A stretch of DNA of 64,000 nt, from the NCBI RefSeq assembly GCF_024298765.1, contig NZ_CP101210.1, one strand, 5' to 3'. Positions 58,751-58,880 of the stretch are shown in pieces. The notes under the pieces are model-generated. The model had not been told where the DNA came from. It saw nothing but the letters and a program-made list of their open reading frames with translations, and did not search any database. Position numbers and translations under genes: made by a program. Origin of the DNA: Escherichia coli. Its GTDB lineage: Bacteria > Pseudomonadota > Gammaproteobacteria > Enterobacterales > Enterobacteriaceae. Within the stretch, counting starts at the first letter, position 1; each line of letters starts with the position of its first letter.

Positions 58751-58880
58751 CTATACTCGTCATACTTCAAGTTGCATGTGCTGCGTCTGCGTTCGTTCAC
58801 CCCAGTCACTTACTTTAGTAAGCTCCTGGGGATTCACTCACTTGTCGCCTTCCTGCAACTCGAATTATTTAGAGTATAAG
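58751..58880. repeat. ERIC / IRU (enterobacterial repetitive intergenic consensus) element
   Basis: Contains ...CAAGTTGCATGTGCTGCGTCTGCGTTCGTTCACCCCAGTCACTTACTTTAGTAAGCTCCTGGGGATTCAC..., the reverse complement of the ERIC core (GTGAATCCCCAGGAGCTTAC...GTGACTGGGGTGAGCGAACGCAGACGCAGCACATGCAACTTG); imperfect palindrome in the mdtL-tnaB spacer. Confidence 0.75.

What the first reader, a model, noticed from the sequence alone, without database searches (positions are those of the whole stretch)
58751..58880. ERIC/IRU repeat in the mdtL-tnaB spacer, with a nearby terminator-like hairpin
The 257 bp intergenic region contains a near-consensus ERIC core in reverse orientation, preceded by a short AGCCAG...CTGGCT hairpin at about 58727-58751. 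ERIC copies are few (tens per genome) and variably placed among strains, so presence or absence is useful for strain typing. A spurious 69 aa ORF in the ORF track overlaps it.
Basis: seen in the sequence. Interest (0 to 1): 0.25.

Follow-up and report, generated by a model that had tools for sequence, protein, structure and literature searches.

The report
Ordinary ERIC repeat, lineage-specific insertion after tnaB
The flagged stretch is a genuine 127-bp copy of the well-known ERIC repeat, sitting just after the tryptophan permease gene tnaB; it is ordinary as an element, but only one E. coli lineage carries it here (71 of 5,426 complete genomes, ST117-type, mostly from poultry).

Summary
Confirmed. 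Window 58752-58878 is a full-length 127-bp ERIC/IRU element. It is 87.7% identical to the published E. coli consensus, 93.7% to the Salmonella reference copy, 41/44 in the core, and 96.8-97.6% to other E. coli copies. Its consensus orientation lies on the minus strand, the strand that encodes tnaB and mdtL. It starts 9 nt after the tnaB stop codon and directly abuts a conserved 10-bp GC-rich hairpin (58728-58752), which is probably the weak terminator of the tnaCAB operon.

As RNA it folds into the expected long hairpin (-51.5 kcal/mol, z = -8.1).

The site is polymorphic. Only 71 of 5,426 complete E. coli genomes are filled, and they form one clonal group that includes ST117/phylogroup G strains. 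K-12, O157, a B2 strain and 40 other species are empty. The event is not a clean TA-duplicating insertion: 7 nt of the empty site are replaced by the ERIC plus 8 nt of unknown origin.

The same junctions occur in one contig from a divergent Escherichia lineage, which suggests spread by recombination. The overlapping 69-aa and 53-aa ORFs are read-throughs of the repeat.

Known kind of element, useful as a lineage marker, low interest.

The parts
58752..58878 (-). ERIC/IRU element, 127 bp, full length, with the published consensus orientation on the minus strand
   Evidence: 114/130 aligned columns identical to the E. coli RU-1/ERIC consensus and 119/127 to the Salmonella SeRU-1 copy (both from PMC2759123 Table 1a); 96.8% to copies present in nearly all E. 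coli genomes; full-length but sub-threshold match to the Rfam family V_AS5, which the alignment suggests is ERIC-like.
58794..58837 (-). 44-nt ERIC core (ERIC1R and ERIC2 primer region)
   Evidence: 41/44 identical to the core, which I recalled from memory as the joined primers; the 20-mer matches exactly, with 0 matches expected by chance.
58752..58776 (.). Terminal inverted repeat, arm next to the hairpin
   Evidence: pair I1: 25-nt arms, 80% complementary, 77 nt apart.
58854..58878 (.). Terminal inverted repeat, arm next to tnaB (AU-rich: CTCGAATTATTTAGAGTATA)
   Evidence: pair I1; it forms the base of the long RNA hairpin.
58879..58886 (.). 8 nt (AGTGGCTG) found only in filled alleles. Together with the ERIC it replaces the 7 nt TGAAGGA of empty sites. 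Origin unknown.
   Evidence: filled against empty alleles; 70 genomes carry this flank, essentially the filled set (71), so no separate group of empty sites has it; the ERIC+flank junction occurs only at this locus.
58728..58752 (-). GC-rich hairpin directly abutting the ERIC; probably the tnaCAB 3'-end or terminator hairpin, with a weak U-tract
   Evidence: pair I3.: -17.2 kcal/mol here against -20.7 in K-12, where the stem is 12 bp; conserved in Escherichia with a compensatory G-C to A-U change and a canonical UUUUU tail in L012; not called a terminator by the consensus scan.
58888..60135 (-). tnaB (low-affinity tryptophan permease); the ERIC lies in its 3' untranslated region, 9 nt after the stop codon
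   Evidence: ORF; RefSeq annotation of matching loci.
57454..58629 (-). mdtL (MFS efflux transporter), the downstream gene; the ERIC lies upstream of the hairpin and of the conserved mdtL upstream region
58670..58879 (+). 69-aa ORF, antisense to tnaB/mdtL, running through the ERIC in the hydrophobic 'RU-1f' frame; judged spurious
   Evidence: no Pfam family. PMC2759123 describes such open frames in ERIC. 98.7% of genomes lack its ERIC-derived two-thirds.
58740..58901 (+). 53-aa ORF containing the 42-aa 'RU-1' frame (YTRHTSSCMC...NSNYLEY); judged spurious
   Evidence: no Pfam family. PMC2759123 Table 1a gives the same peptide for the consensus.

Best explanation
This is one copy of ERIC, a 127-bp non-autonomous miniature inverted-repeat element of enterobacteria. 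In the ancestor of one E. coli lineage (ST117-type, phylogroup G) it came to lie in the 3' untranslated region of tnaB, between the stop codon and the hairpin that ends the tnaCAB transcript. Shown: its identity, its boundaries, its hairpin-forming potential, and its presence in 71 genomes against absence in about 5,348. Inferred: it is co-transcribed with tnaB and folds into a long stem-loop stacked directly on the terminator hairpin. The insertion removes the two outermost base pairs of that hairpin. By analogy with Yersinia ERICs it could alter tnaCAB mRNA decay, but it is most likely neutral or nearly so and persists as a clonal marker. It encodes no protein.
For: Sequence identity to the published consensus and to resident copies. 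127-bp length with TA termini and 25-nt terminal inverted repeats. The RNA fold is -51.5 kcal/mol, z = -8.1, with 0 of 200 shuffles as stable. In context, the ERIC stem and the hairpin are immediately adjacent. Filled and empty alleles: 71 of 5,426 genomes are filled, all at least 99% identical across the spacer. The carriers form one clonal group: only 74 genomes are at least 99% identical over 24 kb, and all others are below 99%. Carriers include G12 (O78:H4-ST117, phylogroup G; PMC11067769) and MDR_56 (used as the ST117 reference in PMC9744880). All 40 other tnaB-bearing species examined, including E. albertii, E. whittamii and two further Escherichia lineages, lack it, so presence is the derived state. 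Reviews describe ERIC as a MITE with terminal inverted repeats, TA termini and target-site duplication, co-transcribed with neighbouring genes and affecting mRNA stability in Yersinia (PMC2229807, PMC3184786, PMC10969869).
Against: The junctions do not show the clean TA duplication expected of ERIC transposition. 7 nt of the empty site are replaced, 8 extra nt are present, and no separate set of empty sites carrying that flank turned up in E. coli. No 127/127 source copy was found; the closest paralogs are 124/127 and 123/127. Transcription, RNA folding in vivo and any effect on tnaCAB or mdtL expression were not and cannot be tested here. The left flank in the window is of the K-12/O157 type, while a second filled allele (L060) has a B2/D-type left flank. 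The allele has therefore moved between backgrounds, and the place of the original insertion is uncertain.
Confidence: 0.88

Rival explanations
1. The ERIC acts here as a cis-regulatory RNA element. Transcribed in the tnaB 3' UTR, its hairpin stabilises or destabilises tnaCAB mRNA (through RNase E access in the AU-rich repeat arm, or by blocking 3' exonucleases), tuning indole production in ST117.
For: It lies 9 nt after the stop codon and upstream of the terminator, so it must be in the mRNA if the hairpin is the 3' end. The structure is very stable. Yersinia ERICs next to stop codons alter the levels of flanking transcripts (summarised in PMC2229807 and PMC10969869). The copy is invariant in nearly all 71 carriers.
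Against: There are no expression data. The invariance is explained by clonality. 98.7% of E. coli manage without it.
Confidence: 0.2
2. The copy did not transpose in the ST117 ancestor. It was imported by homologous recombination as a short patch from another Escherichia lineage in which the 8 extra nucleotides are native flank and the ERIC had inserted cleanly at a TA.
For: The hypothetical donor site GGCTTC-TA-AGTGGCTG would give exactly the observed junctions with a TA duplication. The identical insertion sits in contig OLSJ01000028.1 (L060), whose genes are about 93% identical to E. coli and about 98% to strain E69, while ERIC plus flank differ at 1 of 135 positions. The window's left flank differs from its closest empty relatives at 58682-58738 and matches K-12 instead.
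Against: No empty site with that flank was found in 5,426 E. coli genomes or in 40 species representatives. E69, the nearest relative of L060, is empty with the usual TCCCTTCAA sequence. The flanks of the window show only ordinary E. coli-level divergence.
Confidence: 0.35
3. The region encodes a small RNA or antisense RNA gene of its own, comparable to Vibrio AS5 or Yersinia Ysr49.
For: Rfam V_AS5 matches over its full length (47.1 bits, E = 6e-9). Ysr49 aligns weakly to the ERIC plus the terminator hairpin.
Against: Both scores are far below the gathering scores (47 against 96; 14 against 95). No promoter-like site was found on either strand in 58500-59000. The match simply reflects that those families look ERIC-derived.
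Confidence: 0.04
4. One of the plus-strand ORFs (69 aa or 53 aa) is a real small protein gene.
For: Open frames exist. Delihas reports ERIC frames fused to genes in other species (PMC2759123).
Against: There is no Pfam match. The ORFs are antisense to both neighbouring genes, no promoter-like site was found, they consist mostly of repeat sequence, and they are absent from 98.7% of genomes. RefSeq annotates nothing here in the carriers listed.
Confidence: 0.02

Closest known systems
ERIC / IRU / RU-1 (Sharples & Lloyd 1990; Hulton et al. 1991; Wilson & Sharp 2006), e.g. the E. coli ybhI-ybhJ and pgk-fbaA copies
   Same: 127 bp, the same termini (TATAC...GTATA), the same core, 96.8% identity, intergenic, immediately downstream of a stop codon, and the same long-hairpin fold.
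   Different: This copy is at a locus that is empty in K-12, O157, a B2 strain and about 98.7% of genomes. It carries the central CTTTAG and GTTCACC variants rather than CTTATG and GCTCACC. Its junctions lack a clean TA duplication.
E. coli ERIC between yafP and the rtcB-family/prfH genes (strains GF43, N96)
   Same: It is the closest paralog found (124/127) and shares the CTTTAG and GTTCACC variants. It is also lineage-restricted: 18 genomes have it as their best match, and 95 places in 89 genomes pass the threshold overall.
   Different: A different locus. Its flanks are compatible with a simple TA-flanked insertion (CCATT-TA...TA-TAAATA).
Salmonella SeRU-1 reference copy (Delihas 2007, PMC2759123)
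   Same: 93.7% identical, more than the E. coli consensus (87.7%), with the same arms and the same central CTTTAG.
   Different: 8 substitutions; a different species and locus.
Yersinia ERICs studied by De Gregorio et al. 2005
   Same: MITE with a TA target, co-transcribed with flanking genes, positioned next to stop codons, with an RNA hairpin that affects mRNA levels (as summarised in PMC2229807 and PMC10969869).
   Different: No functional data exist for this copy. Its orientation relative to the upstream gene appears opposite to the one I recall as favoured next to stop codons (from memory, not checked).
Rfam RF02818 V_AS5 (Vibrio RNA AS5)
   Same: The full-length alignment (model positions 1-129) has the same overall hairpin architecture.
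   Different: 47.1 bits against a gathering score of 96, so it is not a member. The resemblance probably reflects the Vibrio branch of ERIC-like repeats.

Membership tests
ERIC / IRU (enterobacterial MITE) | Length of about 127 bp (without the known internal insertions) | tested here: met
   58752-58878 is 127 bp.
ERIC / IRU (enterobacterial MITE) | Sequence similarity to the consensus, especially the conserved central core | tested here: met
   87.7% to the E. coli consensus, 93.7% to SeRU-1, 41/44 in the core. The core 20-mer matches exactly with 0 chance matches. 96.8-97.6% to other E. coli copies.
ERIC / IRU (enterobacterial MITE) | Imperfect palindrome with terminal inverted repeats that folds into a long hairpin | tested here: met
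   25-nt arms, 80% complementary. Minimum free energy -51.5 kcal/mol, z = -8.1.
ERIC / IRU (enterobacterial MITE) | 5'-TA-3' at both termini | tested here: met
   TATAC...GTATA; criterion from PMC2229807 Table 1.
ERIC / IRU (enterobacterial MITE) | Duplication of the target TA on insertion | tested here: inconclusive
   Every empty site examined reads GGCTTCT-TGAAGGA-TTTAGCC, with no TA at the junction. The filled site replaces 7 nt and adds 8 nt, and no empty allele with the matching flank was found.
ERIC / IRU (enterobacterial MITE) | Multiple dispersed copies per genome, in intergenic and transcribed positions | tested here: met
   A median of 11 places per E. coli genome. This copy is intergenic, 9 nt after the tnaB stop. 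Transcription itself was not tested.
ERIC / IRU (enterobacterial MITE) | Filled and empty sites among related genomes, as evidence of past mobility | tested here: met
   71 filled against about 5,348 empty genomes; other species are empty.
Intrinsic (Rho-independent) terminator, for the hairpin at 58728-58752 | GC-rich stem-loop | tested here: met
   10 perfect pairs with a GCCAGC/GCUGGC core, -17.2 kcal/mol.
Intrinsic (Rho-independent) terminator, for the hairpin at 58728-58752 | U-rich tract immediately 3' of the stem | tested here: not met
   The tail on the minus strand is UUGCCUCU (or UUCUUGCC if the stem is read shorter). The scan finds 0 terminator-like sites. A related Escherichia lineage (L012) has UUUUU at the same place.
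Intrinsic (Rho-independent) terminator, for the hairpin at 58728-58752 | Position after the last gene of an operon, conserved with compensatory changes | tested here: met
   It lies 8 nt after the tnaB stop in empty alleles. The hairpin is kept in E. coli, E. albertii, E69, L012 (G-C to A-U) and E. whittamii (G-U). Other genera have different hairpins at the same position.
Intrinsic (Rho-independent) terminator, for the hairpin at 58728-58752 | Transcripts actually end there | not testable with these tools
   This needs 3' end mapping (Term-seq or 3' RACE).
Rfam RF02818 V_AS5 | Score at or above the family's gathering score | tested here: not met
   47.1 bits against 96.

The most novel reading that the evidence does not exclude
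The CTTTAG/GTTCACC subtype of ERIC may have been mobile in E. coli recently. It occupies at least two lineage-restricted sites, tnaB-mdtL and yafP-rtcB. The tnaB copy then spread between Escherichia lineages by recombination. The tnaB 3' UTR insertion may measurably change tnaCAB mRNA stability, and hence indole production, in the ST117 poultry and extraintestinal pathogen lineage.
Probability: 0.1. Interest if true: 0.4.

Novelty: already known. Interest (0 to 1): 0.13.

Why it matters
As an element it adds nothing new. ERIC has been described since 1990-91, and its strain-to-strain presence/absence in E. coli was documented in 2006.

The practical value is modest. A 127-bp size difference in the tnaB-mdtL spacer is a simple PCR or in-silico marker for one clonal group (ST117-type, phylogroup G), which matters in poultry disease and antimicrobial-resistance surveillance. 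The locus also offers a natural filled/empty pair for testing whether an ERIC in a 3' UTR changes mRNA fate in E. coli, a question so far addressed experimentally only in Yersinia. The non-canonical junction and the same allele in a divergent Escherichia lineage are small data points on how such repeats spread, by recombination as well as by transposition.

Tried and rejected
- **Rfam scan of 58300-59300.** It gave only sub-threshold hits. V_AS5 and Ysr49 are ERIC-like resemblances. The c-di-GMP-I hit at 58621-58700 has E = 1.8 and is chance.
- **Promoter and terminator consensus scan of 58500-59000.** It found nothing on either strand, so there is no support for an ERIC-borne promoter driving mdtL.
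- **Pfam on the 69-aa and 53-aa ORFs.** No family matched.
- **Donor locus for 'ERIC + AGTGGCTG'.** In E. coli the junction exists only at tnaB.
- **Metagenome scan for the junction.** Three of the four hits are chance matches in unrelated DNA; one (L060) is the same locus in a divergent lineage.
- **Empty allele carrying the TAAGTGGCTGT flank.** No separate set of genomes with it was found in 5,426 E. coli genomes, and none among 40 species.
- **Plasmids as a vector.** Nothing is closer than the chromosomal paralogs. The single 100% hit is a 4.9-Mb record, a chromosome filed among the plasmids.
- **Import from a foreign species.** SNP density in the flanks is ordinary for E. coli, so there is no sign of a long foreign tract.
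- **The 10-nt inverted match between the extra flank and the ERIC core** (TAAGTGGCTG against TAAGTGACTG, pair I5) **and the 5-nt complementarity to the tnaB end**. I noted both, but they are post hoc and too short to build on.
- **Papers.** Wilson & Sharp 2006 and De Gregorio et al. 2005 could not be opened. Statements about orientation classes A and B rest on my memory and are marked as such.

Full report
**Setting**

All four genes around the finding lie on the minus strand: yidZ (56520-57488), mdtL (57454-58629), tnaB (58888-60135) and tnaA (60227-61657). RefSeq annotation of identical loci gives the same names. The spacer between the mdtL start codon and the tnaB stop codon is 58630-58887, which is 258 bp. 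Transcription therefore runs tnaA, tnaB, spacer, mdtL from high to low coordinates.

**The observation**

- The stretch 58752-58878 is 127 bp, beginning TATACTCG and ending GAGTATA.
- I compared it with the two reference sequences in Delihas 2007 (PMC2759123, Table 1a). It is identical at 114 of 130 aligned columns (87.7%) to the E. coli ERIC/RU-1 consensus taken from Wilson & Sharp.
- It is identical at 119 of 127 positions (93.7%) to the Salmonella copy SeRU-1.
- The 44-nt core, which I recalled as the joined ERIC1R and ERIC2 primers, matches at 41 of 44.
- The 20-mer GTGAATCCCCAGGAGCTTAC occurs exactly once in the window, on the minus strand at 58818-58837. No shuffle of the window contains it, even with 3 mismatches allowed.
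- The element has 25-nt terminal inverted repeats (58752-58776 and 58854-58878, 80% complementary).
- The hairpin beside it is AGAAGCCAGC / GCTGGCTTCT at 58728-58737 and 58743-58752, with ten perfect pairs.
The refutation criterion (under 80% over the core) is not met.

**Structure**

Folded as the RNA that tnaB transcription would produce, the 127 nt form one long imperfect stem-loop. The energy is -51.5 kcal/mol against a mean of -25.1 for shuffles, z = -8.1, and none of 200 shuffles is as stable. In its context (58700-58900, minus strand) the ERIC stem ends on the base immediately before the downstream hairpin begins, so the two helices are adjacent.

Rfam has no ERIC family as such. The best hit is a full-length but sub-threshold match to V_AS5 (47.1 bits; gathering score 96), whose alignment looks ERIC-like.

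**Comparison across E. coli**

This is the most informative result.

- The spacer with 300 bp of each flank matches 5,419 of 5,426 complete genomes. In all but 71 of them the matched span is 734-738 bp instead of 861 bp, so the ERIC is missing.
- The 258-bp spacer is covered in full in exactly 71 genomes, all at least 99% identical and nearly all 100%.
- K-12 MG1655, O157:H7, the B2 strain JJ1887 and the window's closest empty relatives all read ...GGCTTC(T/C)-TGAA(G/A)GA-T-TTAGCC..., apart from minor variants such as 266917_2, which has TGAAGGGATCAGCC and a TGA stop.
- The carriers form one clonal group. Over 24 kb of the window only 74 genomes are at least 99% identical, and all others are below 99%.
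- The carriers include strain G12, published as O78:H4-ST117, phylogroup G (PMC11067769), and MDR_56, used as the ST117 reference genome (PMC9744880). Most are from chickens, turkeys or other birds.
- The window itself is 100% identical over 24 kb to several of these genomes.

**Polarity**

I retrieved the tnaB locus from one genome of each species that has a close TnaB (44 loci) and read the 3' flank in 40 of them. None has an ERIC there. That includes E. albertii, E. whittamii, Escherichia sp. E1V33 and two further species-level Escherichia lineages labelled E. coli. Presence is therefore the derived state.

**The junctions are not canonical**

Reviews describe ERIC as a MITE with TA termini and a target-site duplication (PMC2229807, PMC3184786). 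I recall De Gregorio et al. 2005 specifying duplication of a TA, but I could not open that paper.

Here the empty site has no TA at the junction. The filled allele replaces 7 nt (TGAAGGA) with the ERIC plus 8 nt (AGTGGCTG, 58879-58886).

- The 8-nt flank occurs in 70 genomes, essentially the filled set, so no separate group of empty sites carries it.
- The ERIC-plus-flank junction occurs nowhere else in any E. coli genome.
- Other ERIC copies end exactly at TATA and have unrelated flanks.

If the target had read GGCTTC-TA-AGTGGCTG, the observed junctions would be a perfect TA duplication. That leaves two possibilities: a complex insertion-with-replacement event, or an insertion in an unsampled allele followed by recombination. 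I cannot decide between them.

**A second background**

A metagenome scan for the 20-nt junction returned three chance matches and one real one. The real one is contig OLSJ01000028.1 (L060).

- L060 has the same two junctions, and its ERIC differs at one position.
- Its tnaB, mdtL and tnaA are only 92.5-94.8% identical to the window, and 98.2-98.7% identical to CP089930.1 (strain E69).
- Over 10.4 kb it is 94.3% identical to its top-ranked E. coli matches. All but 18 genomes fall in the 90-95% band, and those 18 are at 95-99%.
- E69 has an empty site.
- Around the ERIC, L060 shares E. coli-type states where E69 differs: the stop codon and sites 58939-58990. Several of those E69 states are private to E69, so the patch boundary is uncertain.
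- The window's left flank (58682-58738) is of the K-12/O157 type, whereas L060 and the window's closest empty relatives carry the other haplotype.

Taken together, the filled allele has been moved between backgrounds by homologous recombination. That is the likeliest way it reached a lineage about 6% divergent. This is inference from a single contig.

**Relatives of this copy**

- Nearly every E. coli genome has copies 96.1-96.8% identical, for example between ybhI and ybhJ and between pgk and fbaA.
- The closest paralog (124/127) lies between yafP and an rtcB-family gene. It is the best match in 18 genomes and I read it in two of them, GF43 and N96. It shares this copy's distinctive GTTCACC and central CTTTAG variants, and its flanks are compatible with a simple TA insertion.
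- No 127/127 source copy was seen, but I could not list every copy within a carrier genome.
- Plasmids hold nothing closer.

**The hairpin**

- In empty alleles it begins 8 nt after the tnaB stop and forms a 12-bp stem (-20.7 kcal/mol). In the window the ERIC removes the two outer pairs, leaving 10 bp (-17.2 kcal/mol).
- It is conserved across Escherichia. L012 has a compensatory G-C to A-U change and a canonical UUUUU tail. E. whittamii has a G-U pair.
- Other genera have unrelated hairpins at the same position.
- In E. coli the tail is only UUCUUGCC, and the consensus scan does not call a terminator on either strand.
- I read it as the 3'-end hairpin of the tnaCAB transcript, a weak intrinsic terminator or a 3' stabiliser.

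**How it most likely works**

Shown: an ERIC copy sits in the tnaB 3' UTR of one clonal lineage.

Inferred:
- It is transcribed with tnaB and folds.
- It leaves the terminator largely intact.
- It does not separate mdtL from its conserved upstream region, because it lies on the tnaB side of the hairpin.
- It is most probably a neutral passenger.

In Yersinia, ERICs next to stop codons change the abundance of flanking transcripts by exposing an RNase E site (PMC2229807, PMC10969869). An effect on tnaCAB mRNA decay is therefore possible. I give it about 0.2, and I could not verify the orientation rules from the original paper.

The 69-aa and 53-aa plus-strand ORFs are the open 'RU-1f' and 'RU-1' frames that Delihas described for the repeat itself (PMC2759123). 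They have no Pfam match, are antisense to both neighbouring genes, and are not annotated in the carrier genomes.

**Verdict**

The element is a textbook ERIC, and strain-level presence/absence of ERICs is already documented: 14 loci beyond K-12 in Wilson & Sharp 2006, as cited in PMC10969869.

What this check adds:
- The exact boundaries of the element.
- The finding that this site is filled in only 1.3% of complete genomes, in one ST117-type lineage.
- The non-canonical junction.
- The same allele in a divergent Escherichia contig.

Interest is low.

Noticed in passing
window 58687-58720 (minus strand: CAGGAAATCACnnnTGTCCAAATGGCAACTCGCC): A non-coding motif between the hairpin and mdtL is almost invariant in E. 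coli, E. albertii, Citrobacter amalonaticus, Silvania and Leclercia, although the surrounding spacer diverges. In Leclercia it is part of a perfect palindrome, GGTGATTTCCT/AGGAAATCACC. It is probably the mdtL promoter or operator, perhaps a binding site for the LysR-type regulator YidZ encoded downstream.
   Followed up: partly
L055 1464-1590 and L056 1464-1590 (E. coli GF43 and N96, between yafP and an rtcB-family gene): A second lineage-restricted ERIC copy, the best match in 18 genomes. It is 124/127 identical to the window copy, shares its CTTTAG and GTTCACC variants, and has flanks compatible with a clean TA insertion. This hints that the subtype moved relatively recently.
   Followed up: partly
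L060 (OLSJ01000028.1), about 2170-2430: The same ERIC with the same junctions sits in a contig whose genes are about 93% identical to E. coli and about 98% identical to CP089930.1 (strain E69, which has an empty site). The filled allele seems to have crossed between Escherichia lineages by recombination.
   Followed up: partly
window 58879-58892: The 8 extra nucleotides pair with the end of tnaB to form a small predicted hairpin (UGGCU-AAAC-AGCCA) that spans the stop codon. They also resemble the ERIC core (TAAGTGGCTG against TAAGTGACTG). Either could be a trace of how the junction arose, or chance.
   Followed up: no
window 58888-58890 and the homologous position in L003, L011, L013: The tnaB stop codon varies among strains and species: TAA in the window and K-12; TGA in strain 266917_2, E69 and E. 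albertii. The few bases between the stop and the hairpin are the most variable part of the spacer.
   Followed up: no
L042 and L044 (Escherichia sp. E1V33, E. whittamii), downstream of the tnaB hairpin: In these species the tnaB hairpin is followed by REP-like sequences (GCCTGATGCGCTACGCTTATCAGGCCTAC, GCCGGATAAGGCG...) that E. coli lacks at this position, so mdtL lies farther downstream of tnaB than in E. coli. The same spacer has therefore been a target for another repeat family elsewhere in the genus.
   Followed up: no
hit H201 (NZ_CP134663.1): A 4.9-Mb E. coli record from a gull is filed in the plasmid collection. It carries the tnaB ERIC at 100% identity and is evidently a chromosome of the same lineage.
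   Followed up: no
window 57454-57488: mdtL and yidZ overlap by 35 nt in the mechanical ORF list, where yidZ gets a TTG start. RefSeq annotates a 26-nt overlap (mdtL 625-1800, yidZ ending at 650 in locus coordinates). This is the usual arrangement at this locus.
   Followed up: no
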